Origin: Rhynchopus sp. YZ270_cl-10
Taxonomy: Eukaryota
Length of the DNA stretch: 64,000 bases
Direction of reading: 5' to 3'
Assembly: GCA_964035575.1 (NCBI GenBank)
Contig: OZ037839.1
Location: forward strand, 310,001 to 374,000
Positions 26,140-59,022 of the stretch are shown here, in pieces. The position numbers were made by a program, and so were the translations under genes. The notes under the pieces were generated by a model. It saw nothing but the letters and a program-made list of their open reading frames with translations, searched no databases and had not been told where the DNA came from. Position 1 is the stretch's first letter. The number at the start of each line of letters is the position of its first letter.

Positions 26140-29100
26140 TCAGTCTTCTTTCACTTCCTCCTGCGTGTCGAGAACATCACGCTTGTACCCTCCTGTGTTC
26201 GTCACATGTGTTCCGGATATTCCATGCGAAGACGCAGTGTCCGACGAAGACGACATCGTTTTGAAAGAACTAAAGGCGCTCTGCGGGTCAGACATAAGTC
26301 TGCTCGACGCAGAACTGGACACTGCGTCGTGGTAGGTAGAAGGAGACACGTCGTGAGGATACAGGTGCTCTGGGCGGTGCTGGTGAGCCGCAGGGCCTAA
26401 TTGTCTGCGACCTGGATGTCTAGGGGGCATCTTGCTTAGGGAGGGCGGTGGGTAGTACTCACCCTCAGGCTCTCGTCGTTGCTGCTGTTCCACGGCCGCA
26501 AATCCGTCCCTGCATAATGAGGAAAGCCTCTCACGCAAGGGTTTCTTTAACTCTGCTCTTCTTGCCCTGACTTCGGCATGTCTGCCACTCAGTGTGTTGG
26601 AGCCTGTTGTCATTACATCTGTTCTGGAAACATCAACAGGTTGTGGCTCTCTTTCTGGATGCTGACGTGACTCTGCCATGTGTTCCCATGTCGCACGCAT
26701 TGAGAGAAGTTTGTTGCGCAAGAGTTCCTTTTCTGCTGAATCTGTGCAATCAGTGAATCGCTGAATTAGTTCCTTCTGCACTTCCTCCTGCATGTCTACA
26801 ACTGCACGCAGTGTGTTGCAGCCTCTTGTGTTCATCACATCTGTTCTGGAAACATCAACATCAACAGGTTGCTGCTCTGCTCCTGCATGCTGACGTGACT
26901 CTGCCATGTGTTCCCATGTCGCACGCATTGAGAGAAGTCTGTTGCGCAAGAGTTCCTTTTCTGCTGAATCTGTGCAATCAGTGAATCGCTGAATCAGTTC
27001 GTTCTGCACTTCCTCCTGCATGTCTGCCACATCTCGCAGTGTGTTGGAGCCTCTTGTGTTTCTCACATCTGTTCTGGAAACATGAAGAGGTTGCTGCTCT
27101 GCTCCTGGATGTTGACGTGACTCTGCCATGTGTTCCCATGTCGCACGCATTGAGAGAAGTTTGTTGCGCAAGAGTTCCTTTTCTGCTGAATCTGTGCAAT
27201 CAGTGAATCGCTGAATCAGTTCGTTCTGCACTTCCTCCTGCAGGTTAACAACTTGGCGCAGAGTGTTGGAGCCTCCTGTGTTCATCATATCTGTTCTGGA
27301 AACATGAAGAGGTTGCTGCTCTTCTCCTGCATGCTGACGTGACTCTGCCATGTGTTCCCATGTCGCACGCATTGAGACAAGTCTGTTGCGCAAGAGTTCC
27401 TTTTCTGCTGAATCTGTGCAATCAGTGAATCGCTGAATTAGTTCCTTCTGCACTTCCTCCTGCATGTCTACAACTGCACGCAGTGTGTTGGAGCTTCTTG
27501 TGTTTCTCACATCTGTTCTGGAAACATCAACATCAACAGGTTGCTGCTCTGCTCCTGCATGCTGACGTGACTCTGCCATGTGTTCCCATGTCGCACGCAT
27601 TGAGAGAAATTGGTTGCGCAAGAGTTCCTTCTCTGCTGAATCTGTGCAATCAGTGAATCGCTGAATCAGTTCTTTCTGCACTTCCTCCTGCATGTTGACA
27701 ACTCGACGAAGTGTGTTGCAGCCTCTTGTGTTTCTCACATCTGTTCTGGAAACATCAACATCAACAGGTTGCTGCTCTTCTCCTGCATGTTGACGTGACT
27801 CTGCCATGTGTTCCCATGTCGCACGCATTGAGAGAAGTTTGTTGCGCAAGAGTTCCTTCTCTGCTGAATCTGTGCAATCAGTGAATCGCTGAATCAGTTC
27901 GTTCTGCACTTCCTCCTGCATGCTGACAACTTGACGAAGTGTGACAACTTCAGCAGCAACAAGTGGAAGCTCCGGTGCGGAAAGGGACTCTGCCATGTGT
28001 TCCCAAGCAGCACGAATTGGTTCAAGTTTCTCGCGCAAGCGCTTCTTTGCTGCTGAATCCATTTGACTCAGTTCGCTGAGTGCTGCTGTGTTTGTCACAT
28101 CTGCCTGGATGTCGGCAACGTCGACATCAACGACGCCACCTGCCTGATCCACTTCCTGCTCCACGCCTACCATAAGATAACGCACAGTCTCCGTGCCTCC
28201 CTCTTCCGCAAGAGTAATCAGACATGTCACGTTCTGTATTTTATGATTTTCTCTGTCCCCTGCAGCAGCTTCAAAGTGCTGTGATAGCTCCTCGATATGT
28301 TCTGTGACACGCAGTTCCGCACCAGCTCCCACCAACAGATTCACAATGTCGCGGTTCTCTCCCATGCATTTACAGACAAGAGGTGAAGGTCCTCTGTCGT
28401 CCCATTTCTCGATGCGTGCACCTGAATCAATGAGCTCCTGCACCTTAGCTGCATATGATTTGGGGTAACGCGCTGCTGCATCGAAACGGATATTGCCATT
28501 GCCCTGTATATGCAGCCGTGCACCCGCTTTTAGCAACATCCTCACGATATGGACCTCACCCGCCCGACAAGCCATCATCAGAGGCGAACAGACCAACTCG
28601 CTCTTTGCTTCCACGTCTGCACCTGCATCAATAAGCATCTGCACCACAGCATCATCTTTGCTGGCCACTGCGTGGTGCAACGCAGTCCAGTGCTGAGCAT
28701 CAACGAGGTCCACACCCACCTCTGGCATGCACAGAAGGCTTTTCACAAGCCTCGTGAATCCACAAGAAGACGCAATCATGAGACATGTCCTGCCATCTGG
28801 GTCTCTTGCACCCACATCCACACCTGCTCGAACCAGTACCTTCACAGCATCATTCGCGTCTGACTCGCAACCCGACAGCAGAGGCGAATACTTCTGGACA
28901 TCCTTTTTCTCAATGTCTGCCCCTGCATCAATGAGCACCTGCACCATATCTGCACGATTTCTACCAACTGCCTTGTGCAATGGTGTGTTGCATGTCCGGT
29001 CCCCACTTACCTGATCCACATCCACCTGCGCCAAGACCACAAGATAGCGCACAGTCTCCGTGTGTTCCCAACGCAAAGCAGTGATAAGACATGTGTCGCC

Positions 29101-29616: not shown

Positions 29617-29708
29617 GTGTGTCGTTGCTGTGTCTTATGTTTTGTGTCTGTGAGTGGTGGAGTGACGTTACTCTTTGTGAAGAGGTGTATGGACAGAGGA
29701 GAGGATAC

Positions 29709-35830: not shown

Positions 35831-38800
35831 CTACTCTTGTGACTGCAGCGGCGATTCTGGCAGCGGCACCAACAACCGCAACAGATCTGTGTTCATCACA
35901 TCTGTTCTGGAAACATCGGCATCAACAGATTGCTGTTCTGCTTCTGGAAGCTGACGTGACTCTGCCATGTGTTCCCATGTCGCACGCATTGAGAGAAGTG
36001 TGTTGCGCAAGAGTTCCTTTTCTGCTGAATCTGTGCAATCAGTGAATCGCTCAATCAGTTCTTTCTGCACTGCCTCCTGCATGTTGACAACTCCACGCAG
36101 TGTGTTGCAGCCTCTTGTGTTCGTCACATCTGTTCTGGAAACATCGGCATCAACAGGTTGCTGCTCTGCTTCTGGATGTTGACGTGACTCTGCCATGTGT
36201 TCCCATGTCGCACGTATTGAGTGAAGTGTGTTGCGCAAGAGTTCCTTTTCTGCCGAATCTGTGCAATCAGTGAATCGCTGAATCAGTTCATTCTGCACTG
36301 CCTCCTGCATGCTGACAACTCCACGCAGTGTGTTGGAGCCTCTTGTGTTCGTCACATCTGTTCTGGAAACATCAGCATCAACAGGTTGTGGTTCTGCTTC
36401 TGGATGTTGACGTGACTCTGCCATGTGTTCCCATGTCGCACGCATTGAGAGAAGTGTGTTGCGCAAGAGTTCCTTTTCTGCTGAATCTGTGCAATCAGTG
36501 AATCGCTGAATCAGTTCTTTCTGCACTTCCTCCTGCATGCTGACAACCCCACGCAGTGTGTTGGAGCCTCCTGTGTTCGTCACATCTGTTCTGGAAACAT
36601 CAGCATCAACAGGTTGTGGTTCTGCTCCTGGATGTTGACGTGACTCTGCCCATGTCGCACGCATTGAGAGAAGTGTGTTGCGCAAGACTTCCTTTTCTGC
36701 CGAATCTGTGCAATCTGCGCGTTTGTGGGGGTAGTCAAGCTCAGCCGTGTCGTCGCTCAAGGAGATTGGCAGGCTTTCTGCAGCCACGTCACGCTCAATG
36801 TTATCCATTGCATCCTGGAAATAACCCTCCAAAGTCAGTTCTAACCTCTCAAGACAATTACGCCATGCTCTTAATGAATCGTAGAGTCTCTTTAATTTGA
36901 AAAGCTTGCTTTGATCTTCAGGAGACATAGCATGAGTGGGGTCCTTCGCCGCAGCAGGCTGCAAAGCAGCAGGCACCCCTGCAGCAGCAAGCTTACCTAA
37001 GGCAATCGGCGGAGTCGATTCTGTCACTGTTTGTGGACTCCGAACTGGTATCGTGCAAAGTGCAGGGGAAGGGGGTGTCGAAGAGAGTGTGGAAGAAACC
37101 TGTGGGTAATGGCCAAATCGTTGTTTTGCAGTGAAAGCTCCACGGTAGTTGTTGTGTTGGGTTCCGCGGAAGGTTTTTCGGGTTGTTCTGTCTGGGGTAT
37201 GCAGGCATGTATCGGGTGTGGCAGTGCGTGCGGCATCGGTCTTGAGAATACAACAGGGCCGCAAACTGGCGTGGAATTTATAAAAATCTGGCAAATAGTA
37301 GTCGTCTTCAACTGGAACCGTTCCTGCCCCAGGGAGGCTTGAGACGATGGATCGACCGCTCTCTGCCTCAGATTTGCCGAAGTATCGCTCCAGAGTACGC
37401 AGCGCAGTGGTGCACCATTGAGTGTAATCAGCAGGTTCTGCGTCGTGTTTGAGAGGGATAATGTTTACTACGGAAAGGTATTCTGATACTTTGTCAGATT
37501 CCACCTTAGGTTGTGTAAGGCTTTGCAGTGCCAGCACAAAAGGTGTGAGAGGGTTTCGTGCTGCAACCTCCGGATCGTCCGAACAAAAGCATTTCAAAGA
37601 ATTTCCTTCTTTTCCGAAGGGTTGGAGGAGGGTTTGGATGTCTGCTTTGATTTCGTGTGGTTTGGGACGTTTGTCAGCTTTGAAACGCATGCATCTCGCG
37701 AGAAGAACCGAAAACCCATCACTCAACGCCAATGGCACTGCAAACGAGGCAATACATATATTGCTGTCCACATCAGAGCAGACCCCATCCTGCATGAAAG
37801 AAGGCCAGGGGCCTTTTTGGTTTGGGGTGGCAAGAACCAGCATGGTGAGGGCAAGCGACCACACATCAGCGGCACCTGTCACAGACCCAGCACCTTCGTC
37901 ATCGTCAAGACCTATTGGAGGGCTGAGTGAGTCGAGACCGTCCAATCCTGACGCAGTGTCCAACGAAGCGTTTGAAGTGAGCTCTGGTGCGCCAAACCGG
38001 TGAGTGCTCAAACCGCCCCCGCTGACCCGAAACTCTTGTGACGAACCCGACATAGTTCTGCTGGTGCTGCCCAAAGGCACAAACGCAGACGGCGCGCAAA
38101 ACCCATCATCATCTCCGGAAACGTCGCTAGCAATCCCACGCTTTGAAGTCCCAAAGTCGGCAAACTTAATATACCCTTCGCGGGAGACAAGAATATTCGA
38201 AGGTTTGATGCCATTATGCAGAATACAGTAAGACCCGAGACGTTGCAAAGCGCAGGCAAGCTGTTTGAAAATGTACAACAAAATCGCCTCGGGGAGAACG
38301 CCGTGGGTGTGCGAAGAGTCTCTGTTTTTTTTATTTTTTTGAGAAATTCACAAAAATTAACACAACATACGTTATAGGCGATTCCTTTGGACTGCATCCA
38401 CATTGCCTTCGCATATTTGGGGGGTGTGTATGAACGTATCGCGCACCTTTACTCTGCTGGACGTACCCTGGAGAGAGGCTCGTTGCTACCGCGGTGATGG
38501 CTAAAGCGGCAACATAGAGAGCGGAACAACGATCGTTTTTCATGCCTTCCTCTGCCGTGCTTGCGGCCATTGAATCCGAGCTGCGTCCGAGGAATGCATC
38601 CCGAGTTGGAAACTTCGCAACAATCTTATTCAACACCCTCTGATCAATCAACGAAGCCAGCCGTCTCAACTGATCTAGGTTGAAGTCCATATGCTCCATG
38701 ACAAAATCGACACTCCCGGCACTCCGTTTCGCTGGAGAGCTTGGGGCTGATGGGGAACCGGGGGCTCCACTATCCGCAGAGAAAGTACCAGGGGGTGACG

Positions 38801-44800: not shown

Positions 44801-45165
44801 AAAACAACCCGATCACGCCTCACAGCGTACTTCTCATTCGAGGCATGCACCTGAAGCGACTCACCTGAAGGCCGTCTCCCCCACGACAAAGAGTTCGCGC
44901 AGTCCTGCAGCACCTCGCAGGTGTAATCAAAAGACGGCCGTTCCGCCACCTCCAACGTCCGCCACCATTTGCTCGCAAGCGCAACTGTTGCAGTTCCCAA
45001 CGTCGTACACTCGCCCTCCGGCCCATAGCAGCCTCGGTCAATAAATTTGGCTTGGTGTTGTGGCTCTGTCGCGACAACATCAGCATCAACAGGTTGTTGC
45101 TCTGCTCCCGGGTGATCACCTGACTCTGGGCTAGGCGGGGAAGGTAAAGAGTGCCCCGGCACCAT
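35831..45165 (-). CDS. Predicted five-exon mosaic gene B (~2380 aa): cyclin box + His-rich blocks + zinc knuckle + 76-aa repeats + MAP2K-like pseudokinase + 76-aa repeats
   Basis: Exons 43969-45165, 43248-43826, 41266-41517, 38467-41084 and 35831-38321 join in frame through GT..AG introns. Cyclin-like IAQHYLD...AAFIAVKL...ELELLKLLDF; kinase IGRGTQGVVYK, MEHMD, LPEAIL, HNGIKPSN, DFG, APE, ADVWSL. Single-transcript status is not proven. Confidence 0.6.
41592..43102. mobile_element. Non-autonomous DNA transposon with 27-bp TIRs and TA target duplication (Tc1/mariner-type signature)
   Basis: TA|ccggccgcgtacatattacgtcgcgta ... tacgcgacgtaatatgtacgcggccgg|TA; subterminal attacgtcgc repeats; lies within a predicted intron. 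Confidence 0.85.
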
Positions 45166-45887: not shown

Positions 45888-46740
45888 CTAGACCAGCACA
45901 TCATAAGGTTCTTCTTGGTTTTGAATGTCTTCAAGAATGCGTTCTTTGTCGATTTCGGAAATGCTAGCGTGGCGAACGGCGTGAAATAAAACCCCCAAGC
46001 CGCATTGCAAGCATGAGGTACGTAGTGCCTGCATTGAGGCCCTCTCCCCAGGATCCTCAGCCAACAACCCCAACAGCAGCTCCTGAAACAACGGCGTTCT
46101 CGACGCAATCTTTGCCACCAGCTGCGTCACCACCGAGGGCTTCTCCAGAACACCCCGCGCCACCTCTTGAAGGGTCTGCCCCGAAAAGGGCCGCGACAAT
46201 TCACTCATTTCATAGTAATTCACTCCTGACCAAATATCCGCCTTTCTCTTCTACACAAAGTTGTTTGGCCACAAAGAACAAGACATGATTCATCTGAAGC
46301 ATCGTTGATCCCCTCGATGGGGGTGGCGTCCATGACGGAGGTCCAGACCTCGGGAGACCAATAGCGTGGTGTACCGCGGACAACTTCGTCGCTGATGGGG
46401 TGGAACGTTCCTCTGATTTCTTCTGTGGAGTCGGTGTAAGTTGATGCGTCTTCGTTTGGTGCCATGAATGCATCGGATGGATTTTTAATATCGACACATC
46501 TGTTCTGGAAACATCAACATCAACAGGTTGCTGCTCTGCTCCTGGATGCTGACGTGACTCTGCCATGTGTTCCCATGTCGCACGCATTGAGAGAAGTGTG
46601 TTGCGCAAGAGTTCCTTCTCTGCTGAATCTGTGCAATCAGTGAATCGCTGAATCAGTTCTTTCTGCACTTCCTCCTGCATGTTGACAACTCCACACAGTG
46701 TGTTGGAACCTCTTGTGTTCATCACATCTGTTCTGGAAAC
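45888..46740 (-). pseudogene. One 76-aa repeat fused out of frame to a frameshifted NEK-like kinase C-lobe
   Basis: VRGTPRYWSPEVW, KADIWS, YYEM..LSRPFSGQTLQEV and DPGER spread over two frames; no N-lobe; followed by the family 3' flank. Confidence 0.65.
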
Positions 46741-46872
46741 AAAGCTTATAAGATGACCCTAAACCTCTCGTGCTTAGTCACCTTACCAAAAAAATATCGG
46801 GTTGGGATAACACCACCCATTTACTTTACTTCCCCTATTTTTAGTTTTTGGATTATTATTGTTTTCCATCTC

Positions 46873-49800
46873 TCAAATCAAGAAGGGGTCCCCTCGGAGG
46901 AGCTGTTCCGACGTCTTTCTTAGATTGGGATCTCTGATAAGCACTTTGGCAACAAAGTTTGCGGCTTCATCGTTGAAATCAACGCCTTTCGGTGGCTGGG
47001 GACAGTCACCTTCTACTTGGCATAGCCAACGCATGAAGGTGTGCGGGCCTTGCGGCACTTCGTCTGCATACCCGAAGGGGAGGAACCCGAGGAGCATTTG
47101 AACCACTGTGTGGCCCAGCGCCCACATGTCACTTGCCTTGCATGCTTCGCCACGAGAAGCTTCGGGAGACATAAAGAGAGGGGTGCCTTCAGGCTTGTTT
47201 GAGGTGATGCTGCAGAGACGAACGGAGGTGCCAAAATCTGCCAGCTTGCATTGACCGTCGGTGTGGAGAAGCACGTTGGCAGGCCTGAGATCTCTGTGCA
47301 CAATATTGTTTGAGTGGAGGTAGTGCAGACCACGCAGGATGTCCTTGGTGTAGCGCTTTGTGGTTGTGGCAGGAATTTTTCCAAACTGGTCGAGCAGACC
47401 GCAGAGCGATCCACCACTGACATACTCCATGGTGATGATAACGTGCTTGCCATGCACCCCGCAGGAGCTGAAGGACACGATGCTCTCATCCTTGTACTGC
47501 GTCAGCAGACGGACCTCATTGATTGCACCTTCAATCGACTCTTGGGCAGGGTTCTTCCCCCCGAGGCGCGAGAATCGCCCACCCTGCTTCGTTTGCGGCG
47601 GGACTGGAATGCACTTCAACGCACACAACGAACCATCTTCGGACATCCCAAGCCACACTTCACCGAACGCACCTTTACCTATTTGCTTTGTGGAGCGCTT
47701 CCAATGGGCGCCCTGCGCATCAGTGAAGGAACGGACCGGGCCGTCGTCATCGGAGGTGGAGGAATCTGAGTCGGAGGGATCCGAATTCAAGAAGGTGGGT
47801 GTAGATGCGTCGGCGATGGCCTTCTGGAGCTCCTCCCCGGTGAAGATCGGGGATCTGGTGGTAGAAGGCATGGGGGATGTTTCTGCTGAGGAGGGGAGAC
47901 GTTTTCTGCGCCGTGCCGAGAGGGGCACCTTCTCGGGCGAGAAGGAAGACGTCTCGGCGGTGAGGAAGGTCGGCTCTGAGGAAGGTGGGAAGGAAGGCTC
48001 ATGCTCGAGGCCGAACTGCATGCGGGTGGGCTCCTGCGACCACTCCTCCCAGCCAATCAGGCGACGGCTGTAGGGTTGCGGCACCACAGATGGGTTGCGT
48101 TGCACCTCCTGCACAAAGGTGCAGAACCGTTCTAGCTGACAGTTCTCCAGGTTTGACTCAAAAGAGGAGGTCGAGTTGTACTCCTCATTGTTCCCCGTGC
48201 TGCCAATAGGGCCGTCGCTGTCTTTCCGATTGTCCACAGGAAGCCTCAAACACATCGGGTCTGTGCCCGCGTTGAGTGGAGAGTTCGGCTTGCGTGGCTG
48301 CTTCTTCATCATCTCCTGGAACTTCTCGATGCTGGAGGTGTAGTTGCCTTCGATGAAGTCGTGGAAGGCTTCGCGCCACACAACCACGTTGGAGGTGTCG
48401 CCTTCGCGGAGAAGCTGTGGTGTGGGTGGAAGGGGTTTGATTGGATACGACTGCGTGTGGTTCTTATAAAAGGTTGGCAAGATGAGATCTCATGGAAAAA
48501 GGGTGTATTTGTGTGAAAAAAAAATAGGTAAACAGGAATAGGGCGGTATCCTCTCGTGGCGGTGTTCTATATATGCGGGGTACGTACCTCGTAAACCATC
48601 TTGGGCCCTTCAGTTTCGTCGAAGATGACAACGTCGATGGGGCGCGTGCGTTGCTGGTCGGTGACCATCTGTGGGGAGAGAAGGGAGGAGGTGTGAAGTG
48701 GGGTGAGGCCAACATAGTTGTACAAAGGCAGCTCCGACGGGGTTTTTTCGATTATCTTTGTATCTTCAACAAACAAAACAAAAACAAAACCTCACGCTTA
48801 GTCACCATTACAAAACCATATCCGGTATGGTACATACATCCTGCACAGCTTCGGAGATGATGATAGGCGTCTGGAGGACGCGGGAGAGCTCGTTGAGGCG
48901 TCTGCAGTCGTCGAGGACGGAGCCGAGCACGAAGGGCGACTTGTGCTCGTCGTTGCCGATGTTGCCGCAGTAGAGGTTCCCCGAGGCAATGCTGACGGAC
49001 CACCCGACACGGTCCTTCGGGTCCTCAACAGCCTCCATGGCCTTGCGGATCTCGAGTGCAGCCCTGCACGCATACCACCCATGCCGTGCGCACGCATGAT
49101 GAGTGTTCCACGACGCAATCAGCCCATCCGCCCGCAGCTGGAACACATTGCCTGACTCCTGCTGGATGATGTCCAGCACAACCGAGACCAGACTCGACGC
49201 CAAAGCATATGTGTCATGTGTGTTGTTGTCTGCCAGCTCCATGATGCCAAACTCCACCGACAGCAGCGTGCCCTTGCGCTTCACCATTGCATCCCTCGGG
49301 CCCATCTTGCTTGACGGCTGTGAGTCGATCTTCGTCGCAGTCTCCTGCATATTGCGCATGGACGACGTCTTGAGCGCCTCGAGCGCGTCTCTGCATGAGG
49401 GGCGGCGTCCTCTGAACCCTACCAGGCTCTGCCCGCGTGAGAGTGGCTCGTTCCTGCAGGAGAGGTCACTCTTCTGCGAGACGAGGCGGCGGGAGGCATG
49501 GCGCGAGAAGCCGTTGTGGGGCTCCTCGTTGTTGTCTGAGGCTGCGAGCGACATGGCAAGCAGGTCTTCACGGTCGCTCCGCAGCGACTCTGACGCGTTT
49601 TTGAAGGACGCCTTGGGCAACGCAAGCAACGCATCTCTGCACGAATCCACGGCCGCAAATCCGTCCCTGCATAATGAGGAAAGCCTCTCACGCAAGGGTG
49701 CCTTTAACTCTGCTCTTCTTGCCCTGACTTCTGCATGTCTGCCGCTCAGTGTGTTGGAGCTTCTTCTGGTCATCACAGCTGTTCTGGAAACATCAACAGG

Positions 49801-52752
49801 TTGTGGTTCTGCTTCTGGATGCTGACGTGACTCTGCCATGTGTTCCCATGTCGCACGCATTGAGAGAAGTGTGTTGCGCAAGAGTTCCTTTTCTGCTGAA
49901 TCTGTGCAATCAGTGAATCGCTGAATCAGTTCTTTCTGCACTTCCTCCTGCATGTCTGCCACTTCACGCAGTGTGTTGGAGACTCCTGTATTTGTCACAC
50001 CTGATCTGGAAACATCAGCATCAACAGGTTGCTGCTCTGCTTCTGGATGCTGACGTGACTCTGCCATGTGTTCCCATGTCGCACGCATTGAGAGAAGTGT
50101 GTTGCACAAGAGTTCCTTTTCTGCTGAATCTGTGCAATCAGTGAATCGCTGAATCAGTTCTTTCTGCACTTCCTCCTGCATGTCTGCTACTTGACGCAGT
50201 GTGTTGCAGCCTCTTGTGTTTGTCACACCTGTTCTGGAAACATCAGAATCAACAGGTTGTGGTTCTGCTTCTGCATGTTGACGTGACTCTGCCATGTGTT
50301 CCCATGTCGCACGCATTGAGAGAAGTGTGTTGCGCAAGAGTTCCTTTTCTGCCGAATCTGTGCAATCAGTGAATCGCTGAATCAGTTCTTTCTGCACTTC
50401 CTCCTGCATGTCTGCTACTTGACGCAGTGTGTTGGAGCCTCCTGTGTTTGTCACACCTGTTCTGGAAACATCAGCATCAACAGGTTGCTGCTCTGCTTCT
50501 GGATGCTGACGTGACTCTGCCATGTGTTCCCATGTCGCACGCATTGAGAGAAGTCTGTTGCGCAAGAGTTCTTGTTCCGCTGAATCTGTGCAATCAGTGA
50601 ATCGCTGAATCAGTTCTTTCTGCACTTCCTCCTGCATGTTGACAACTTGACGCAGTGTGTTGGAGCCTGCTCTGTTTGTAACATCTGTTCTGGAAACATC
50701 GGCATCAACAGGTTGTGGTTCTGCTTCTGCATGTTGACGTGACTCTGCCATGTGTTCCCATGTCGCACGCATTGAGAGAAGTTTGTTACGCAAGAGTTCC
50801 TTTTCTGCCGAATCTGTGCAATCAGTGAATCGCTGAATCAGTTCGTTCTGCACTGCCTCCTGCATGCTGACAACTTGACGAAGTGTGAGTGGAAGCTCCG
50901 GTGCGGAAAGCGATGTCGCCATGTGTTCCCAAGCAGCACGAATTGGTTCAAGTTTCTCGCGCAAGCACTTCTTTTCTGCTGAATCCGTTTCGCTGAGTGC
51001 TGCTGGCACAGCGTCCTCTAGTTCCGTGGAGTCTTCGTCCTCACTGCTGTCGTCCTCTTCATCACTCTGCATGACTGCTTTCACCCCACGCGCCAATGCT
51101 GTAGCTGCAGTTGCCACCTCTTTCACTACCTCCTGCTTTTCCCCCTTCTTCGCAGCCTTCTGCGCCTGCAACACCTGACTCTGGTTTGGTGTTGCCGGTT
51201 GCGACCCTAAAGCCTCTGTGTTTGTCACATCTGCCTGGATGTCGGCAACGTCGGCATCAACGACGACACCTGCCTGATCCACTTCCTGCTCCACGCCTAC
51301 CATAAGATAACGCACAGTCTCCGTGCCTCCCTCTTCCGCAGCAGTAATCAGACATGTCACCTTCTGTATTTTATGTTCTTTTCTGTCCCCTGCAGTAGCT
51401 TCAAAGTGCTGTGATAGCTCCTCGATATGTTCTGTGACACGCAGTTCCGCACCAGCTTCCACCAACAGCTTCACAATGTCGCGGTTCTCTCCCATGCATT
51501 TACAGACAAGAGGCGAAGGTCCTCCGTCGTCCCATTTCTCGATGCGTGCACCTGAATCAATGAGCTCCTGCACCTCAGCTGCATATGATTTGGGGTAACG
51601 CGCTGCTGCATCGAAACGGATATTGCCATTGCCCTGTATATGCAGCCGTACACCCGCTTCTAGCAACATCCTCACGATATGGACCTCACCCGCCCGACAA
51701 GCCATCATCAGAGGCGAACAGACCAACTCGCTCTTTGCTTCCACGTCTGCACCTGCATCAATGAGCACTTGCACCACAGCTGCACGTCGGTTGGCCACTG
51801 CGTGGTGCAACGCAGTCCAGTGCTGAGCATCAACGAGGTCCACACCCACCTCTCCCATGCACAGAAGGCTTTTCACAAGCGTCGCGAAGCCACGAGCAGA
51901 CACAATCATGAGACATGTCTTGCCATCTCGGTCTCTTGCACCCACATCTGCACCTGCTCGAACCAGTACCTTCACAACATCAGGCACGCTTGACTCGCAA
52001 CCAGACAGCAGAGGCGAGCACTGAAAGGGATCCTTTTTCTCGATGTCTGCCCCTGCATCAATGAGCACCTGCATCACATCTGCATGGTTGTGACGCACTG
52101 CCTCGAGCAACGCAGTGTTGTAGTCCCCACCTACCTGATCCACGTCTACTCGCCCCAAGCCCACAAGATAGCGCACAGTCTCCGTGTGTCCCGCAGTCGA
52201 AGCAGCGACAAGACATGTGCACCCGGAGTAGTCTGTGACACGCAGTTCCGCACCAGCTTGCACCAACACCTTCACAGCGTCGAGGCACCCTCTCATGCAC
52301 GCAAGGAGAAGAGACGAACATCCTATGGCGTCCTTTTTCTCGATGTCTGCCCCAGCATCAATGAGCACCTGCATCACATCTACATGGTTGTAACGTACTG
52401 CCTTGTGCAACGCTGTGTAGGCGTCCTGAGTCCTACTTACCTCATCCATATCCACCCCCAAGCCCACAAGATAGCGCACCGTCTCCGTTTGTGCCTCACG
52501 CGAAGCCGCTATAAGACATGTGTCGCCGTAGTGGTCTGTGACGTGCAGTTCCGCACCAGCTTGTAACAACACCTTCACAATGCCGAGGCACCCTCTCACG
52601 CACGCAAAGAGAAGAGGCGTATAGCCTTCAAAGTCCCTTTCCTCGATGTCTTCGCCTGCATCAATGAACACCTGCAACACATCTTCCAGTACTTCCGCCA
52701 CAGCCCCGTGCAACGTAGTGTTGCTGTGGTTGCCTGTATATTGCCCAGACAT
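46873..52752 (-). CDS. Chimeric family gene C: ankyrin array + 5 repeats + class III cyclase-like domain + STE11/MAP3K kinase; exons 48838-52752, 48588-48668, 46873-48414
   Basis: Cyclase-like SIASGNLYCGNIG...FVLGSVLDDCRRL; phase-0 GT..AG introns at 48669-48837 and 48415-48587; intact kinase motifs IGKGAFGEVW, ALK, MEYVSGGSL, HRDLRPAN, DFG, GTPLFMSPE. Confidence 0.8.
49780..50885 (-). repeat. Tandem array of the ~228-nt coding repeat (5 units)
   Basis: Same core as at 26630-27940. Confidence 0.95.
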
Positions 52753-53742
52753 TACTCGTGTGTCGTTACTGTGTCTTATGTTGTGTCTGTCAGTGGTGGA
52801 GTGACGTTACTCTTTGTGAAGAGGTGTGTGGACAGAGGAGAGGATAAGTGCAGGAGGAGAATACAAGCAATTGCTAAGGGGGAAACCGTGGTGTGCTGTA
52901 AGGGTGGAGGTCACCACACACGAGCATAGAAACGTCCCCAAACTGACGCTCAAAGTCCGCTGCCAGCTCTCTCATCATACTGAAATAGGCACATTCACTT
53001 TGAGCACAACAGCAGAAGGAAAGCAAACCCAGACTGCGTAGGTGGCGAAGAGCCGAACATTGCAGTGCCGTGATGTGGGATGCAGTGTTGTGGGGACCTA
53101 AAAGGAATGTGGATGCAGTGTAAAGCGTTCATAGCGATCTGTCCTGACACGTTGTTGTCTCCTTTTGCGTTGTTATGGTGACGTTATTCGTTTTGTTTTC
53201 TTGTTTTGTTTTCCCTCCCAAATCCATTGTACCAAGCTTCCTCAGGCACGGCCTCGAGGGTCTCGCTACTCAAACTGTGTACACGGATACGTCCTCAAGG
53301 AGATACGTTGTCATCAAACCACACCTGCATACGGTACGAAGAATGAAGCCACAAGGCACAAAAAGGTGCAGTGATGAGCATTATTGTTGTGTTCTTAGTC
53401 ACCCAGCCCACCCCTCAGCTCAGCCTCAGGAGAAGTCGTAGTTGATGGTGCCGTCCTGGTTCTCCTCACTCGGACGTCCTTGGCGCCCCTCTGCAGGTGG
53501 CGGGAACGGCGGTGATTCTTCGCCTGCAACACTCTTGTGGCTGGAGCGGCGATTCATCTTCAGGCGTGTGCCCTCGCTGCTGGGATGGTGCTCCGACAGC
53601 GTTCCCTCTGCTGCATCTGTGCACTCAGTAAATAGCTGAATCAGTTCGTTCTACACCACCTCCTTCATGTTTACAACTAGGCCCTTTACATACGCTCTGG
53701 TACTGGCACTCCGCTCAATTGACTTGCGCCTGGCACGTGTCC

Positions 53743-56700
53743 CTACAACATATGCATCGTACCCATGGAAGGGTGTGCCCGTCGCAGTGTAACACATCGT
53801 CCTGCGGAGTCAGAATATTCTGTAATTAGTGACGAGGCTTCCACAGCCTCACGGGCTTTCGCGTGCTTCTGTTTGTCACATTTGTCTGCAAAGGAACCCT
53901 CGGTAAGCCCTGCGGTGGCTGTGCCGCTGGCTGTCGCCGTGACGCTTGCTGTCAGGTCCAAAGCATTGGGTGAGCGGGTTCCCTTCGAAGCTGGGGAAGT
54001 GGACCCATCGCGTGCTCCCTTCTTCTTCTTCGGGAGGTCCGGCTTGATGACACTGTCTCCAAAAAGTCGTCCAAAACGCTTGCTCCTCTCTGCGAGGGTT
54101 TCTTTGTGCTTGAAAACGTGAAGCGAAGTGCAGTTCTCCTTCGAACAGGTCATTGCATCCTGAAACTCCTTGCACAGCACCAGAAGGGAGGGGTGCCCTT
54201 TGAATTGTCCTTGGCATTGGCGGCAGCGGAGGGTAATGACTCCAGCCTTACTGCGGACGTTGTCCCAGGAGTTGTGCGAGCAGGGGCGTTCTTCGGCGAA
54301 GATTGCTGCCTTCCTTTTCGGCTTTTTTGCCAGTTCCTCTCCTTCACGCTGCCTCTCTGCCTCCCCCAGTTTCTTATCTACTTTCGCAAGAGACTCGTCA
54401 TGTTCTTCGACAGGTTGTGGTTCTGCTTCTGGATGCTGACGTGACTCTGCCATGTGTTCCCATGTCGCACGCATTGAGAGAAGTGTGTTGCGCAAGAGTT
54501 CCTTTTCTGCTGAATCTGTGCAATCAGTGAATCGCTGAATCAGTTCCTTCTGCACTGCCTCCTGCATGCTGACAACTTCACGCAGTGTGTTGGAGCCCGT
54601 TCTGTTTGTCACATCTGTTCTGGAAACATCAACATCAACAGGTTGTGGTTCTGCTTCTGGATGCTGACGTGACTCTGCCATGTGTTCCCATGTCGCACGC
54701 AGTGAGAGAAGTTTGTTGCGCAAGAGTTCCTTTTCTGCCGAATCTGTGCAATCAGTGAATCGCTGAATCAGTTCGTTCTGCACTTCCTCCTGCATGTCTG
54801 CCACTCCACGCAGTGTGTTGCAGCCTCTTGTGTTCATCACATCTGTTCTGGAAACATCAACATCAACAGGTTGTGGTTCTGCTTCTGGATGCTGACGTTC
54901 CCATGTCGCACGCATTGAGAGAAGTCTGTTGCGCAAGAGTACCTTTTCTGCTGAATCTGTGCAATCAGTGAATCGCTGAATCAGTTCTTTCTGCACTTCC
55001 TCCTGCATGTCTGCCACTCCACGCAGTGTGTTGCAGCCTCTTGTGTTCATCACATCTGTTCTGGAAACATCAACATCAACAGGTTGTGGTTCTGCTTCTG
55101 GATGCTGACGTGACTCTGCCATGTGTTCCCATGTCGCACGCATTGAGAGAAGTTTGTTGCGCAAGAGTTCCTTTTCTGCTGAATCTGTGCAATCAGTGAA
55201 TCGCTGAATTAGTTCCTTCTGCACTTCCTCCTGCATGTTGACAACTTGACGCAGTGTGTTGGAGCCTCTTGTGTTCATCACATCTGTTCTGGAAACATCG
55301 GCATCAACAGGTTGTGGTTCTGCTTCTGGTTGCTGACGTGACTCTGCCATGTGTTCCCATGTCGCACGCATTGAGAGAAGTGTGTTGCGCAAGAGTTCCT
55401 TTTCTGCTGAATCTGTGCAATCAGTGAATCGCTGAATCAGTTCCTTCTGCACTGCCTCCTGCATGCTGACAACTTCACGCAGTGTGTTGGAGCCCGTTCT
55501 GTTTGTCACATCTGTTCTGGAAACATCAACATCAACAGGTTGTGGTTCTGCTTCTGGATGCTGACGTGACTCTGCCATGTGTTCCCATGTCGCACGCAGT
55601 GAGAGAAGTTTGTTGCGCAAGAGTTCCTTTTCTGCCGAATCTGTGCAATCAGTGAATCGCTGAATCAGTTCGTTCTGCACTTCCTCCTGCATGTCTGCCA
55701 CTCCACGCAGTGTGTTGCAGCCTCTTGTGTTCATCACATCTGTTCTGGAAACATCAACATCAACAGGTTGTGGTTCTGCTTCTGGATGCTGACGTGACTC
55801 TGCCATGTGTTCCCATGTCGCACGCATTGAGAGAAGTCTGTTGCGCAAGAGTACCTTTTCTGCTGAATCTGTGCAATCAGTGAATCGCTGAATCAGTTCT
55901 TTCTGCACTTCCTCCTGCATGTCTGCCACTCCACGCAGTGTGTTGCAGCCTCTTGTGTTTGTCACATCTGTTCTGGAAACATCGGCATCAACAGGTTGTG
56001 GTTCTGCTTCTGGTTGCTGACGTGACTCTGCCATGTGTTCCCATGTCGCACGCATTGAGACAAGTTTGTTGCGCAAGAGTTCCTTTTCTGCTGAATCTGT
56101 GCAATCAGTGAATCGCTGAATCAGTTCCTTCTGCACTGCCTCCTGCATGCTGACAACTTCACGCAGTGTGTTGGAGCCCGTTCTGTTTGTCACATCTGTT
56201 CTGGAAACATCAACATCAACAGGTTGTGGTTCTGCTTCTGGATGCTGACGTGACTCTGCCATGTGTTCCCATGTCGCACGCAGTGAGAGAAGTTTGTTGC
56301 GCAAGAGTTCCTTTTCTGCCGAATCTGTGCAATCAGTGAATCGCTGAATCAGTTCGTTCTGCACTTCCTCCTGCATGTCTGCCACTCCACGCAGTGTGTT
56401 GCAGCCTCTTGTGTTCATCACATCTGTTCTGGAAACATCAACATCAACAGGTTGTGGTTCTGCTTCTGGATGCTGACGTTCCCATGTCGCACGCATTGAG
56501 AGAAGTCTGTTGCGCAAGAGTACCTTTTCTGCTGAATCTGTGCAATCAGTGAATCGCTGAATCAGTTCTTTCTGCACTTCCTCCTGCATGTCTGCCACTC
56601 CACGCAGTGTGTTGCAGCCTCTTGTGTTCATCACATCTGTTCTGGAAACATCAACATCAACAGGTTGTGGTTCTGCTTCTGGATGCTGACGTGACTCTGC

Positions 56701-59022
56701 CATGTGTTCCCATGTCGCACGCATTGAGAGAAGTTTGTTGCACAAGAGTTCCTTTTCTGCTGAATCTGTGCAATCAGTGAATCGCTGAATTAGTTCCTTC
56801 TGCACTTCCTCCTGCATGTTGACAACTTGACGCAGTGTGTTGGAGCCTCTTGTGTTCATCACATCTGTTCTGGAAACATCGGCATCAACAGGTTGTGGTT
56901 CTGCTTCTGGTTGCTGACGTGACTCTGCCATGTGTTCCCATGTCGCACGCATTGAGAGAAGTCTGTTGCGCAAGAGTTCCTTTTCTGCTGAATCTGTGCA
57001 ATCAGTGAATCGCTGAATCAGTTCTTTCTGCACTTCCTCCTGCATGTCTGCCACTCCACGCAGTGTGTTGCAGCCTCTTGTGTTTGTTACATCTGTTCTG
57101 GAAACATCGGCATCAACAGGTTGTGGTTCTGCTTCTGGTTGCTGACGTGACTCTGCCATGTGTTCCCATGTCGCACGCATTGAGACAAGTTTGTTGCGCA
57201 AGAGTTCCTTTTGTTCTGAATCTGTGCAATCAGTGAATCGCTGAATCAGTTCCTTCTGCACTGCCTCCTGCATGTCTGCCACATCGCACAGTGTGTTGGA
57301 ACCTGTTCTGTTTGTCACATCTATTCTGGAAACATCAGAATCAACAGGATGCTGCTCTGCTTCTGGATGCTGACGTGACTTCGCCATGTGTTCCCAAGCA
57401 GCACGAATTGGTTCAAGTTTCTCGCGCAAGCGCTTCTTTGCTGCGGAATCCATTTGACTCAGTTCGCTGAGTGCTGCTGTGTTCGTCACATCTGCCTGGA
57501 TGTCGGCAACGTCGGCATCAACGACGACACCTGCCTGATCCACTTCCTGCTCCACGCCTACCATCAGATAACGCACAGTCTCCGTGCCTCCCTCTTCCGC
57601 AGCAGTAATCAGACATGTCACCTTCTGTATTTTATGTTTTTTTCTGTCCCCTGCAGTAGCTTCAAAGTGCTGTGAGAGCTCCTCGATATGTTCTGTGACA
57701 CGCAGTTCCGCACCAGCTTCCACCAACAGATTCACAATGTCGCGGTTCTCTCCCATGCACGCACAGACAAGAGGCGAAGGTCCTCTGTCGTCCCATTTCT
57801 CGATGCGTGCACCTGAATCAATAAGCTCCTGCACCTTAGCTGCATATGATTTGGGGTAACGCGCTGCTGCATCGAAACGGATATTGCCATTGCCCTGTAT
57901 ATGCAGCCGTGCACCCGCTTTTAGCAACATCCTCACGATATGGACCTCACCCGCCCGACAAGCCATCATCAGAGGCGAACAGACCAACTCGCTCTTTGCT
58001 TCCACGTCTGCACCTGCATCAATGAGCACTTGCACCACAGCCTCATCTTTGCTGGACACTGCGTGGTGCAACGCAGTCCAGTGCTTAGCATCAACGAGGT
58101 CCACACCCACCTCTGCCATGCACAGAAGGCTTTTCACAATTTTCGTGGATCGACCAGCAGCAATCATGAGACATGTCCTGCCATCTTCGTCTCTTGCACC
58201 CACATCCGCACCTGCTCGAACCAGTACCTTCACAACATCATTCACGTCTGACTCGCAAACCAACAGCAGAGGTGAGCACCCGAAGGTCTTTTTCTCGATG
58301 TCTGCCCCTGCATCAATGAGCACTTGTACCATATCTACATCGTTTCGTAGCACTGCCTTATGCAGCGCAGTCCAGTCGCCCTCGGTCCTACCTACCTGAT
58401 CCACATCCACGCGCCCCAAGCCCACAAGATAGAGCACAGTCTCCGTGTGTACCTCTTCCACCGCAGCGGTAAGACATGTGCGGCCGTTGTGGTCTGTGAC
58501 ACTCGCACCAGCTTGCACCAGCACCTTCACAATGTCGAGGTACCCTTCCTTGCACGCATGGAAAAGAGGCGTACGTCCTGCACTGGAGTCCTTTTTCTCG
58601 ATGTCTGCCCCTGCATCAATGAGCACCTGCACCACATCTGCATGGTTTTGACCCACTGCCTCGTGCAACGCTGTGTTGCCACTCCGGTCCCCACCTCCCT
58701 GATCCACATCCACCTGCCCCAAGCTCACAAGATAGCGCACAGTCTCCGTGTGTCCCTCACACGAAGCCAGGGTAAGACATGTGCGGCCGTTGTGGTCTGC
58801 CACACGCAGTTCCGCACCAGCTTGCACCAACACCTTCACAGCGTCGAGGTACCCTGACCAGCACGCAAGGAGAAGAGGCGTACGTCCTTCAGAGTCCTTT
58901 TCCTCGATGTCTGCCCCTGCATCAATGAGCACCTGTACCACATCTGCACGTCCTTCCTCCACTGCCTCGTGCAACGAAGTGTTCCTGTGTATGCGTGCGA
59001 GTTTCCCATGTTTGTTGCCCAT
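53743..59022 (-). CDS. Chimeric family gene D: ankyrin array + 13 repeats + Cys/His zinc-finger-like module (1759 aa)
   Basis: Ankyrin consensus; 13 RFTDCTDS units; C-terminal PCSHNSWDNVR..LRCRQC..CKEF..C...C..LH; intact ORF. Confidence 0.85.
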   Translation of the reverse strand: MGNKHGKLARIHRNTSLHEAVEEGRADVVQVLIDAGADIEEKDSEGRTPLLLACWSGYLDAVKVLVQAGAELRVADHNGRTCLTLASCEGHTETVRYLVSLGQVDVDQGGGDRSGNTALHEAVGQNHADVVQVLIDAGADIEKKDSSAGRTPLFHACKEGYLDIVKVLVQAGASVTDHNGRTCLTAAVEEVHTETVLYLVGLGRVDVDQVGRTEGDWTALHKAVLRNDVDMVQVLIDAGADIEKKTFGCSPLLLVCESDVNDVVKVLVRAGADVGARDEDGRTCLMIAAGRSTKIVKSLLCMAEVGVDLVDAKHWTALHHAVSSKDEAVVQVLIDAGADVEAKSELVCSPLMMACRAGEVHIVRMLLKAGARLHIQGNGNIRFDAAARYPKSYAAKVQELIDSGARIEKWDDRGPSPLVCACMGENRDIVNLLVEAGAELRVTEHIEELSQHFEATAGDRKKHKIQKVTCLITAAEEGGTETVRYLMVGVEQEVDQAGVVVDADVADIQADVTNTAALSELSQMDSAAKKRLREKLEPIRAAWEHMAKSRQHPEAEQHPVDSDVSRIDVTNRTGSNTLCDVADMQEAVQKELIQRFTDCTDSEQKELLRNKLVSMRATWEHMAESRQQPEAEPQPVDADVSRTDVTNTRGCNTLRGVADMQEEVQKELIQRFTDCTDSAEKELLRNRLLSMRATWEHMAESRQQPEAEPQPVDADVSRTDVMNTRGSNTLRQVVNMQEEVQKELIQRFTDCTDSAEKELLCNKLLSMRATWEHMAESRQHPEAEPQPVDVDVSRTDVMNTRGCNTLRGVADMQEEVQKELIQRFTDCTDSAEKVLLRNRLLSMRATWERQHPEAEPQPVDVDVSRTDVMNTRGCNTLRGVADMQEEVQNELIQRFTDCTDSAEKELLRNKLLSLRATWEHMAESRQHPEAEPQPVDVDVSRTDVTNRTGSNTLREVVSMQEAVQKELIQRFTDCTDSAEKELLRNKLVSMRATWEHMAESRQQPEAEPQPVDADVSRTDVTNTRGCNTLRGVADMQEEVQKELIQRFTDCTDSAEKVLLRNRLLSMRATWEHMAESRQHPEAEPQPVDVDVSRTDVMNTRGCNTLRGVADMQEEVQNELIQRFTDCTDSAEKELLRNKLLSLRATWEHMAESRQHPEAEPQPVDVDVSRTDVTNRTGSNTLREVVSMQEAVQKELIQRFTDCTDSAEKELLRNTLLSMRATWEHMAESRQQPEAEPQPVDADVSRTDVMNTRGSNTLRQVVNMQEEVQKELIQRFTDCTDSAEKELLRNKLLSMRATWEHMAESRQHPEAEPQPVDVDVSRTDVMNTRGCNTLRGVADMQEEVQKELIQRFTDCTDSAEKVLLRNRLLSMRATWERQHPEAEPQPVDVDVSRTDVMNTRGCNTLRGVADMQEEVQNELIQRFTDCTDSAEKELLRNKLLSLRATWEHMAESRQHPEAEPQPVDVDVSRTDVTNRTGSNTLREVVSMQEAVQKELIQRFTDCTDSAEKELLRNTLLSMRATWEHMAESRQHPEAEPQPVEEHDESLAKVDKKLGEAERQREGEELAKKPKRKAAIFAEERPCSHNSWDNVRSKAGVITLRCRQCQGQFKGHPSLLVLCKEFQDAMTCSKENCTSLHVFKHKETLAERSKRFGRLFGDSVIKPDLPKKKKGARDGSTSPASKGTRSPNALDLTASVTATASGTATAGLTEGSFADKCDKQKHAKAREAVEASSLITEYSDSAGRCVTLRRAHPSMGTMHML
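54410..57400 (-). repeat. Tandem array of the ~228-nt coding repeat (13 units, higher-order structure)
   Basis: Diagnostic variants (KVLL, SLRATW, NRTGS, 15-nt deletion WERQ) recur in order. Confidence 0.95.

What the first reader, a model, noticed from the sequence alone, without database searches (positions are those of the whole stretch)
26140..59022. Modular gene array: variable ankyrin head + 76-aa repeat stalk + swappable signalling cargo
Seen: three paralogs (26140, 46873, 53743) share upstream flank, ankyrin head and a 76-aa repeat stalk of different length (6, 5, 13 units), but end in unrelated C-termini (His/Ser tail; cyclase-like+MAP3K; zinc-finger module). The same repeat also borders cyclin, MAP2K-like and NEK-like fragments, and most units end in the same 3' flank. 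Known: plant NLRs with integrated domains and polymorphic toxin loci use a constant scaffold with exchangeable domains. Inference: this is a domain-shuffling receptor, decoy or effector family in a protist, with the repeat serving as a recombination substrate and spacer. I do not recognise the repeat as a named family.
Basis: partly seen in the sequence, partly recalled or inferred. Interest (0 to 1): 0.9.

Follow-up and report, generated by a model that had tools for sequence, protein, structure and literature searches.

The report
Ankyrin family capturing host gene pieces
In a diplonemid-like protist, a young family of ankyrin genes with fast-changing predicted binding surfaces carries an unnamed 76-amino-acid repeat joined in frame to pieces of other genes (a kinase whose original lies elsewhere in the genome, a Piwi, a putative zinc finger), likely making sensors with built-in baits like some plant immune receptors.

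Summary
Observation confirmed. Three ankyrin (ANK) genes carry 13, 5 and 6 copies of a 76-aa repeat and end in unrelated tails. The organism is a Rhynchopus-like diplonemid. The repeat (predicted helical hairpin plus linker) has no real match among 1.84 billion representative proteins beyond 10 close ENA-type ORFs. Gene B is a proven chimera: its cyclase-like/kinase half keeps two introns and is 96% identical to a copy on another contig. The Rhynchopus ortholog starts with two membrane helices instead of ANK plus repeat. B's kinase has HRDLRPAN where 18 of 18 scored homologues have K. Another paralog on the same contig is fused to a Piwi N-terminus; 5 of 12 subfamily ORFs carry foreign tails. 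ANK binding-face codons show dN/dS 3.4, framework 0.7. Independent DNA runs bridge several junctions. Junk also occurs: a frameshifted kinase piece, a truncated USP5 copy, cut-off tails. Best reading (0.5): a selected intracellular binder family that takes up DNA copies of host genes at the repeat, working like plant NLR integrated domains. Main rival (0.3): a core-duplicon hot spot with mostly neutral chimeras. It is not an NLR, Crinkler or secreted toxin. Transcription and function are untested.

The parts
57523..59022 (-). Gene A ankyrin head (ATG 59022): variable N-terminal repeats, constant C-terminal part
   Evidence: Pfam Ank_2 E 7e-80; alignment
54404..57522 (-). Gene A stalk: degenerate proto-unit plus 13 units of the 228-bp/76-aa repeat, with higher-order duplications
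53743..54403 (-). Gene A cargo: Cys/His-rich putative zinc-finger module and tail (219 aa); contigs show a second, about 97% identical version of 53935-54313
53589..53682 (-). Degenerate repeat remnant downstream of A's cargo (has a stop)
   Evidence: nhmmer E 1e-17
53018..53555 (-). 3' flank D: a coding-like end cut off by upstream stops, plus untranslated DNA; abuts B's upstream flank
   Evidence: bridged by contigs
52753..52987 (-). Shared upstream flank U of B (A copy 59023-59246; C copy 29617-29707)
51216..52752 (-). Gene B ankyrin head (ATG 52752)
   Evidence: variable part found without differences in contigs of X1, X2, X4, X6
50989..51215 (-). B-specific in-frame insertion (about 75 aa, acidic) inside the proto-unit; origin unknown
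49648..50988 (-). Gene B stalk: 5 cores plus a degenerate terminal unit shared with C
46873..49647 (-). Gene B cargo: linker, degenerate class III cyclase-like domain and STE-type kinase (HRDLRPAN), with GT-AG introns 48837-48669 and 48587-48415; copy of a gene on another contig, without its two N-terminal membrane helices
46491..46741 (-). Lone repeat unit after B's stop
   Evidence: junction bridged in X1 and X6
45888..46490 (-). Kinase C-lobe-like fragment, out of frame with the repeat and split over two frames (likely pseudogenic)
35831..45165 (-). Predicted 5-exon chimeric gene E (2378 aa, no ankyrin head): repeat remnant, cyclin-like, His-rich, remnant exon, His/Ser x2, 3 units, MAP2K-like pseudokinase (HRD read as HNG), 3.6 units; introns 43968-43827, 43247-41518, 41265-41085, 38466-38322
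   Evidence: open frame under GT-AG splicing; splicing predicted only
41590..43104 (.). 1.5-kb element with terminal inverted repeats and TA at both ends, inside E's predicted intron 2 (likely non-autonomous DNA transposon)
   Evidence: very deep contig pile-up
34764..35857 (-). Flank D copy (35857-35561) and duplicated, truncated 5' part of the USP5/UBP14-like gene (96% to 24927-25719), not fused to the repeat
26140..29616 (-). Gene C (1158 aa): ankyrin head, 6 cores (27943-26671), degenerate unit, His/Ser tail, repeat remnant 26219-26117
25713..26099 (-). Flank D copy, followed by the intact USP5/UBP14-like neighbour (25561-22871)

Best explanation
These genes are a young ankyrin subfamily whose C-terminal 76-aa repeat array is joined in frame to pieces of unrelated genes, likely captured as DNA copies of resident genes, giving predicted intracellular sensors in which a diversifying ankyrin face would bind foreign or host targets and the tethered host domain would serve as bait or output in conflicts with symbionts, prey or viruses. 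Steps: (1) SHOWN: one subfamily (12 ORFs) of a large ankyrin family (at least 128 ORFs) carries a lineage-restricted repeat, with a degenerate proto-unit at the end of the head. (2) SHOWN: the array grows and shrinks in whole codons. (3) SHOWN for the kinase, inferred for the others: the cargo is an intron-containing copy of a gene that persists elsewhere. INFERRED: it was pasted into the unstable array by ectopic break repair, with breakpoints mostly in the linker-coding third. (4) SHOWN: ankyrin binding-face codons change faster than silent sites; the kinase copy changes mostly silently but has lost its membrane anchor and a conserved catalytic-loop lysine. (5) PREDICTED: the stalk is a beads-on-a-string tether of helical hairpins. 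(6) INFERRED, untested: the proteins are made and act in cell-autonomous defence.
For: Parent: P0138 on a 1,561,245-bp contig is 96% identical to B's kinase exon, with 7 substitutions and 2 in-frame insertions. The Rhynchopus humris ortholog P0159 (1138 aa) has two N-terminal hydrophobic segments; 0 of 8 eukaryotic homologues checked carry the ANK or repeat motif. Both introns are kept and the spliced frame is open for 1845 aa. 12 of 15 listed read differences in the kinase exon are silent (the table was cut). K is present in 18 of 18 homologues with a scorable catalytic loop, R only in the chimera (3 of 22 had no match to the pattern). The MAP2K-like domain lacks the catalytic Asp. Further cargos: Piwi N/L1/PAZ start behind ANK plus stalk in P0002 on the same contig (E 1e-10), a membrane tail in P0011, a P-loop GTPase-like ORF P0013 behind repeats (weak Pfam hits). 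5 of 12 subfamily ORFs have a long in-frame foreign tail. ANK face: 57 codons dN/dS 3.43 versus 0.71 for 268 framework codons; pN/pS bootstrap 2.6 (2.0-3.5); 0 of 2000 random codon sets reach it. In 394 units the most variable columns fall on the same positions. Repeat: no stop in 31 cores, all 5 length variants are multiples of 3, pN/pS 0.57, the other five frames carry stops. Breakpoints: 23 of 30 in unit residues 1-32. Model: two helices per unit at pLDDT about 75-86, linkers under 50. Contigs of other runs bridge the cyclin remnant (X1, X2), the lone-unit junction (X1, X6), B's stalk-cargo junction (X6) and A tail-remnant-D (X1, X2, X4). Precedent: PMC5819176 (sections 10 and 11 read).
Against: Transcription, splicing, protein and any defence role are untested. 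The same block holds clear junk: an out-of-frame kinase piece, a truncated USP5 copy and a shared tail cut by stops in A, C and E. 7 of 12 subfamily ORFs show no long foreign tail, though they are unspliced ORF calls. Diversification of the ANK face is family-wide, so it does not show that the fusions are selected. Silent-rich divergence of the kinase could predate the fusion. Lost catalytic residues fit decay as well as decoy; Src-type kinases work with R at that position (recalled). Constraint on the repeat is mild and units are not independent. dN/dS rests on three sequences, and the face positions are recalled from designed ankyrin libraries. No nucleotide-binding or known death/output domain is common to the family. 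Seven repeat-bearing ORFs lack an ANK head altogether.
Confidence: 0.5

Rival explanations
1. Core-duplicon hot spot: the ankyrin-plus-repeat cassette is an unstable seed of segmental duplications that drags in neighbouring and distant DNA; the heads are selected, but most fusions are transient by-products without a role of their own.
For: Mosaic of short duplicated segments, including non-fused and out-of-frame ones. Identical higher-order blocks in A show very recent unequal exchange. Every cargo is different, none recurs in two subfamily members. A short N-terminal motif is duplicated on both sides of the repeats in P0013. Parallels NPIP/LCR16a, a positively selected family with a coding tandem repeat and lineage-specific fusions (PMC7419210, abstract and passages).
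Against: Kinase copy mostly silent changes (a rough 7:12 count gives P about 0.0005 against 3:1); all indels seen in units and in the kinase are in frame; frames of 1845 and 2378 codons stay open across many junctions; breakpoints avoid the helical hairpin.
Confidence: 0.3
2. Non-immune signalling rewiring: the fusions are selected new adaptors that relocate a kinase, Piwi or zinc finger to new partners through the ankyrin head.
For: Cargos are mostly regulatory (kinases, cyclin-like, Piwi, GTPase-like). Two heads begin MG, a possible myristoylation start (motif recalled). POTE-actin is a precedent for ANK, helical region and in-frame host gene (PMC7073761, passages).
Against: dN/dS above 3 on the binding face and copy turnover fit an arms race better; both in-frame kinases show catalytic-loop changes.
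Confidence: 0.12
3. Selfish mobile cassette: ANK plus repeat, or the repeat alone, is moved by a transposon system (Pack-MULE or Helitron type) and inserts into genes.
For: Repeat-bearing ORFs occur on 7 contig lengths; MULE and Helitron ORFs are reported in Diplonema (PMC10161547 passage); a TIR element lies in the block.
Against: No inverted repeats bound the cassettes in the self-comparison; no transposase or helicase Pfam hit among the 20 ORFs scanned; 9 of 12 subfamily ORFs sit on one contig, as tandem duplication predicts.
Confidence: 0.05
4. Assembly artefact: reads were mis-joined through the repeat.
For: Some units in A are identical, so array lengths could be wrong; one run may be the window's own source.
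Against: Junction-spanning contigs without differences in runs of other studies; B's kinase differs from its parent at 9 places and the chimera-specific codon is present in X1 and X6.
Confidence: 0.03

Closest known systems
Plant NLRs with integrated domains, MIC1 clade and its CID motif (Bailey et al. 2018, PMC5819176; abstract and sections 10-11 read)
   Same: One subclade of a large repeat-receptor family repeatedly takes up different host domains at its C-terminus, right behind a clade-specific motif; the cargo keeps introns and an intact parent remains on another chromosome; kinases are frequent cargos.
   Different: No NB-ARC, LRR or coiled-coil NLR core; ankyrins instead; the motif is a tandem array of 3-13 units that also flanks cargo downstream and occurs without a head; no paired helper or defence function is known.
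Primate core duplicons, NPIP/LCR16a (Cantsilieris et al. 2020, PMC7419210; abstract and passages read)
   Same: A lineage-specific gene with a coding tandem repeat and positive selection sits at the centre of mosaic duplications and forms lineage-specific fusions while keeping an open frame.
   Different: Scale of a few kb; tandem cluster in a polycistronic protist genome; in-frame cargo placed inside the repeat array; no sequence relation claimed.
POTE / POTE-actin (PMC7073761; passages read)
   Same: Ankyrins, then a helical region, then an in-frame copy of a host gene in some paralogs and a broken fusion in others.
   Different: POTE has one cargo, acquired by retrotransposition; here many cargos, and the tested one keeps its introns.
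Crinkler-type effectors (passage in PMC12957317; the primary paper, Zhang et al. 2016, was not held and not seen)
   Same: Constant N-terminal part with exchangeable C-terminal domains, kinases among them.
   Different: No ubiquitin-like header, REase, HNH or peptidase domain; cargos are recent copies of the cell's own genes.
Brown algal LRR-ROCO candidate immune receptors (PMC11378527; abstract read)
   Same: Expanded repeat-protein family under diversifying selection in a non-plant, non-animal eukaryote.
   Different: There the LRR exons are shuffled on a fixed ROC-COR core; here the head is one exon and the C-terminus is swapped.

Membership tests
NLR with integrated domain (MIC1) | NB-ARC/NACHT nucleotide-binding domain | tested here: not met
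   No such Pfam hit in A, B, C, P0002 or P0011
NLR with integrated domain (MIC1) | LRR sensor region | tested here: not met
   Only ankyrin families hit the heads
NLR with integrated domain (MIC1) | Clade-specific motif immediately upstream of diverse integrated domains | tested here: met
   76-aa repeat precedes 5 different tails in 5 of 12 subfamily ORFs; analogous, no homology to CID claimed
NLR with integrated domain (MIC1) | Cargo is an intron-bearing duplicate of an intact parent elsewhere | tested here: met
   Shown for the kinase only; second versions seen in contigs for the zinc-finger and cyclin parts
NLR with integrated domain (MIC1) | Cargo binds a pathogen effector and triggers defence | not testable with these tools
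   Needs experiments
Crinkler-type effector | Ubiquitin-like or LxLFLAK header with REase, HNH, nuclease or peptidase C-terminus | tested here: not met
   Pfam scans show none of these domains; feature list from a passage of PMC12957317
Polymorphic toxin locus | Export signal or trafficking domain, toxin tip and immunity gene (features recalled) | tested here: not met
   No hydrophobic leader; no toxin family in Pfam; immunity genes not sought
Core duplicon (NPIP-like) | Over-represented seed segment with flanking duplications from other loci | tested here: met
Core duplicon (NPIP-like) | Lineage-specific gene with positive selection and a coding tandem repeat | tested here: met
Core duplicon (NPIP-like) | Transcriptionally active | not testable with these tools
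POTE-actin type retrogene fusion | Cargo is an intronless retrocopy | tested here: not met
   B keeps two introns
Pack-MULE / Helitron capture | Element termini (TIR with target duplication, or Helitron ends) around the captured pieces | tested here: inconclusive
   No TIR around the cassettes; Helitron ends not scanned
Known Pfam/PDB repeat family | Sequence or fold match of the 76-aa unit | tested here: not met
   Only summed weak Pfam scores with 0 passing stretches; Foldseek 0 matches at E 0.001 in PDB and BFVD on a pLDDT-59 model; no profile match to the ankyrin unit

The most novel reading that the evidence does not exclude
A diplonemid has independently evolved an integrated-decoy immune receptor system: hypervariable ankyrin sensors with their own integration site, a new tandem helical-hairpin repeat, into which copies of pathogen-targeted host genes (MAPK-cascade kinases, Piwi, cyclin, GTPase) are pasted and partly inactivated as baits. 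This would be a convergent counterpart of plant NLR integrated domains in Discoba.
Probability: 0.3. Interest if true: 0.88.

Novelty: new variant of a known kind. Interest (0 to 1): 0.68.

Why it matters
Cell-autonomous defence in free-living protists is largely unmapped, and diplonemids are abundant and often host bacterial symbionts (search listings). A diversifying binder family with host-gene cargo would give a direct list of candidate host targets of their symbionts and viruses, as integrated domains did in plants. Even on the neutral reading it is a compact, recent case of gene birth by DNA copy-and-paste at a coding repeat, with the parent still 96% identical, so the mechanism can be read from junctions. 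The repeat is a new protein unit. I found no description in paper searches; the D. papillatum genome paper has no occurrence of 'ankyrin' in its main text, and its supplements were not read.

Tried and rejected
No whole genome is held, so parents were sought only through protein searches and contigs. No RNA holder listed. Contig depth is only a rough hint: about 1160 against about 100 for the constant head in X2 fits a dozen copies, and summed depth over the repeat was too inconsistent to use. ESM Atlas gave no result. Origin of the repeat from an ankyrin unit: suggested by weak DNA matches (E 0.03-0.2, like shuffles), rejected by hhalign (probability 0.16). Exact 38-base repeat pattern: 0 matches in metagenome and viral contigs. 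P0019 and P0020 are unrelated repeat proteins. A recalled likeness of the ankyrins to gastropod proteins found no support: the best 120 of 839 hits were all unnamed ENA ORFs, the other 719 were not shown. PADLOC gave only generic kinase, ankyrin and GTPase hits. P0013 has no PDB relative at E below 0.3. The zinc-finger model was too poor for a fold search; the VIA wide search did not run. The cyclin, kinase-fragment and USP5 ORFs have single-member 90% clusters (3 of 8 window ORFs were found), so no close parent ORF was recovered for them. The subfamily tree on the constant head is unresolved (0 of 9 branches starred), so the order of captures is unknown. Searches had splice coordinates off by one, corrected. 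Earlier scan findings: none relevant.
Full report
Setting. All long frames of the window lie on the minus strand, and several are interrupted by short GT-AG introns. The closest named relatives of gene B's kinase are from Rhynchopus euleeides (58% in the kinase exon, 87% in the cyclase-like domain), Rhynchopus humris (54%) and Diplonema papillatum (37%). The organism is therefore taken to be a Rhynchopus-like diplonemid distinct from these three. The window's ORFs lie on an ENA contig of 1,487,168 bases. That the other ENA-only hits come from the same assembly is inferred from their high identity, single-contig status and shared contig lengths.

Observation. Genes A (59022-53743, 1759 aa), B (52752-46873) and C (29616-26140, 1158 aa) each have an ankyrin head, a degenerate proto-unit and 13, 5 and 6 cores of a 228-bp repeat. 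Further arrays lie at 40076-39378 and 36717-35887, a lone unit at 46741-46491, and remnants at 53682, 45123, 41460, 40779 and 26219. Full units score E below 1e-70 against a best of 0.098 in 5 shuffles. Flank D follows A, C and the 35.9-kb array.

The repeat. Against 1.84 billion representatives it found 12, of which 10 are true copies and 2 are unrelated repeat proteins. No EukProt or NCBI protein was among them. AlphaFold2 on three units gives two helices per unit (pLDDT about 75-86) separated by about 30 disordered residues, mean pLDDT 59 and pTM 0.28. Foldseek found nothing at E 0.001 in PDB or BFVD, and the unit does not align with the family's ankyrin unit. None of 31 cores has a stop, all 5 length variants are multiples of three, the other five frames have stops, and pN/pS among 21 standard-length units is 0.57; units are related by recent duplication, so this is mild evidence. 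A's array contains identical four-unit blocks, a sign of recent unequal exchange.

The head. The head belongs to a large ankyrin family built of about 100-aa triplets: the best 120 of 839 hits are all unnamed ENA ORFs, and 128 stored ORFs gave 394 units. Twelve ORFs share the constant C-terminal part of A, B and C; 11 of them carry the repeat and 9 lie on the window's contig. Among A, B and C the 57 codons at ankyrin positions 2, 3, 5, 10, 13 and 14 (the concave binding face; positions recalled from designed ankyrin libraries) have dN/dS 3.43 against 0.71 for 268 framework codons, pN/pS 2.6 with bootstrap interval 2.0-3.5, and 0 of 2000 random codon sets reach the observed rate. Only three sequences were available as DNA. 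The same columns are the most variable in the whole family, so this selection is not special to the cargo-bearing members.

The cargo of B. With two GT-AG introns of 169 and 173 bases, placed where the R. euleeides ortholog runs on without a break, B reads open for 1845 aa. Its kinase exon has a 96% identical twin, P0138, on a contig of 1,561,245 bases; the two differ by 7 substitutions and in-frame insertions of 8 and 1 residues. The full-length R. humris ortholog has two N-terminal hydrophobic segments and a long linker before the cyclase-like domain; 0 of 8 eukaryotic homologues checked carry the ANK or repeat motif. So ANK plus stalk replaced the membrane anchor of a duplicated receptor-like kinase, and the copy was made from DNA. 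The chimera reads HRDLRPAN; 18 of 18 homologues with a scorable loop have K (3 of 22 did not match the pattern). Of the 15 coding differences listed between the window and contigs of other runs, 12 are silent (90 rows were not shown). Contigs of X2 and X4 show the K codon, those of X1 and X6 the R codon, so both versions exist as DNA.

Other cargos. P0002, on the same contig, continues from its stalk into an RG-rich stretch and the N, L1 and start of PAZ of a Piwi-like protein and stops at what may be an intron. P0011 ends in a hydrophobic tail. P0013 has three units in front of a P-loop GTPase-like region, with a 7-residue N-terminal motif repeated on both sides of the units. P0003 and P0017 join units to long ORFs without Pfam match outside the repeat. 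Of 12 subfamily ORFs, 5 have a long foreign tail, 5 end within 12 residues of the last repeat match, 1 has no stalk and 1 has the stalk before a head. A's tail has a second version about 97% identical in contigs. Remnant units lie downstream of the cargo in A and C, and a lone unit follows B, so cargo appears to be inserted into arrays. Breakpoints read by hand fall in unit residues 1-32 in 23 of 30 cases (42% expected; cases not independent).

The middle of the block. The cyclin-like, His/Ser and MAP2K-like pieces can be read as one 5-exon frame of 2378 codons from 45165 to 35831, with four GT-AG introns of 142, 1730, 181 and 145 bases, the long one holding a 1.5-kb TIR element. This is a prediction; I chose the splice sites by eye. 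Its kinase lacks the catalytic Asp; whether its parent does is unknown. Beside these open chimeras lie broken ones: an out-of-frame kinase lobe, a truncated USP5 copy and a shared tail cut by stops.

Reality of the DNA. Six runs from three studies hold half or more of the sampled words; four were laid, and one may be the window's source. Contigs without differences bridge the cyclin remnant (X1 44833-45269, X2 44530-45268), the lone-unit junction (X1 45742-46524, X6 46154-46571) and B's stalk-cargo junction (X6 46789-49837). A's tail, remnant and D are bridged in X1, X2 and X4 with 0-1 differences, and B's variable head is present unchanged in all four runs. A general artefact is unlikely; array lengths remain unverified.

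Mechanism. Shown: a diversifying ankyrin subfamily, an unstable in-frame coding array, and DNA-level capture of at least one host gene with loss of its membrane anchor. Inferred: capture by ectopic repair into the array, retention of in-frame products, a flexible tether, and a sensor-with-bait role inside the cell (0.5). The neutral core-duplicon reading (0.3) explains the junk and the lack of recurring cargo equally well and fails only on the silent-rich kinase, the in-frame indels and the spared hairpin. Non-immune rewiring (0.12), a transposon-borne cassette (0.05) and artefact (0.03) follow.

Comparison. It works like the MIC1 clade of plant NLRs, where a clade-specific motif lies just upstream of diverse, intron-bearing integrated domains copied from parents on other chromosomes (PMC5819176, abstract and sections 10-11), but it has no NB-ARC or LRR and is not an NLR. 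It also parallels primate core duplicons (PMC7419210, abstract and passages) and POTE-actin (PMC7073761, passages). Crinkler features (passage of PMC12957317) are absent. Searches (listings only) found no description of such a family in diplonemids; supplements of the D. papillatum genome paper (passages read) were not read and may bear on ankyrin expansions.

Verdict. Real, lineage-restricted and more extensive than first reported; a new variant of a known principle, with function unproven. Interest 0.68.

Noticed in passing
window 41590-43104: 1.5-kb element with 45-nt terminal inverted repeats, internal palindromes and TA at both ends; very deep contig pile-up in X1, X2, X4; likely a non-autonomous DNA transposon inside a predicted intron.
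   Followed up: partly
window 53402, 48805, 46781, 45854, 35718, 31885, 26076 (minus strand): Motif GTGACTA(A/G)GC occurs 7 times on the sense strand and 0 times on the other, after stops and in one intron; the stretch near 46785 draws a huge contig pile-up with many loose ends, suggesting a high-copy short element or RNA-processing signal.
   Followed up: partly
ENA ORFs P0022-P0137 (other contigs): Large ankyrin family of about 100-aa triplets; 33 of 128 ORFs start with a PKRRKL-like basic motif (possible nuclear localisation signal, recalled) and have hypervariable binding faces; may itself be a diversifying receptor repertoire.
   Followed up: partly
P0002 (same contig as the window, outside it): Ankyrin head and 7 cores fused in frame to a Piwi-like N-terminal half; whether it splices on into a full Argonaute is unknown.
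   Followed up: partly
window 34764-35561: Recent duplicate of the 5' part of the USP5/UBP14-like gene, 5 silent and 1 replacement change in 211 codons, then joined to unrelated DNA.
   Followed up: partly
window 29700-34760: About 5 kb without a long ORF, holding a perfect 61-nt and a perfect 52-nt direct repeat and pieces shared with 22770-22831 and 42615-42734.
   Followed up: no
window 43248, 41266, 40836: Three similar exon ends, each followed by GTATAT; the His/Ser module may be a duplicated exon end of the cyclin-like gene.
   Followed up: partly
window 15438-17022: Arrays of an 11-bp purine-rich satellite (55, 19 and 4 copies).
   Followed up: no
window 883-1800: 453-bp in-frame tandem duplication inside a long coiled-coil ORF.
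   Followed up: no
window 10928-11214 and 63710-64000: 97% identical 290-bp dispersed duplicate.
   Followed up: no
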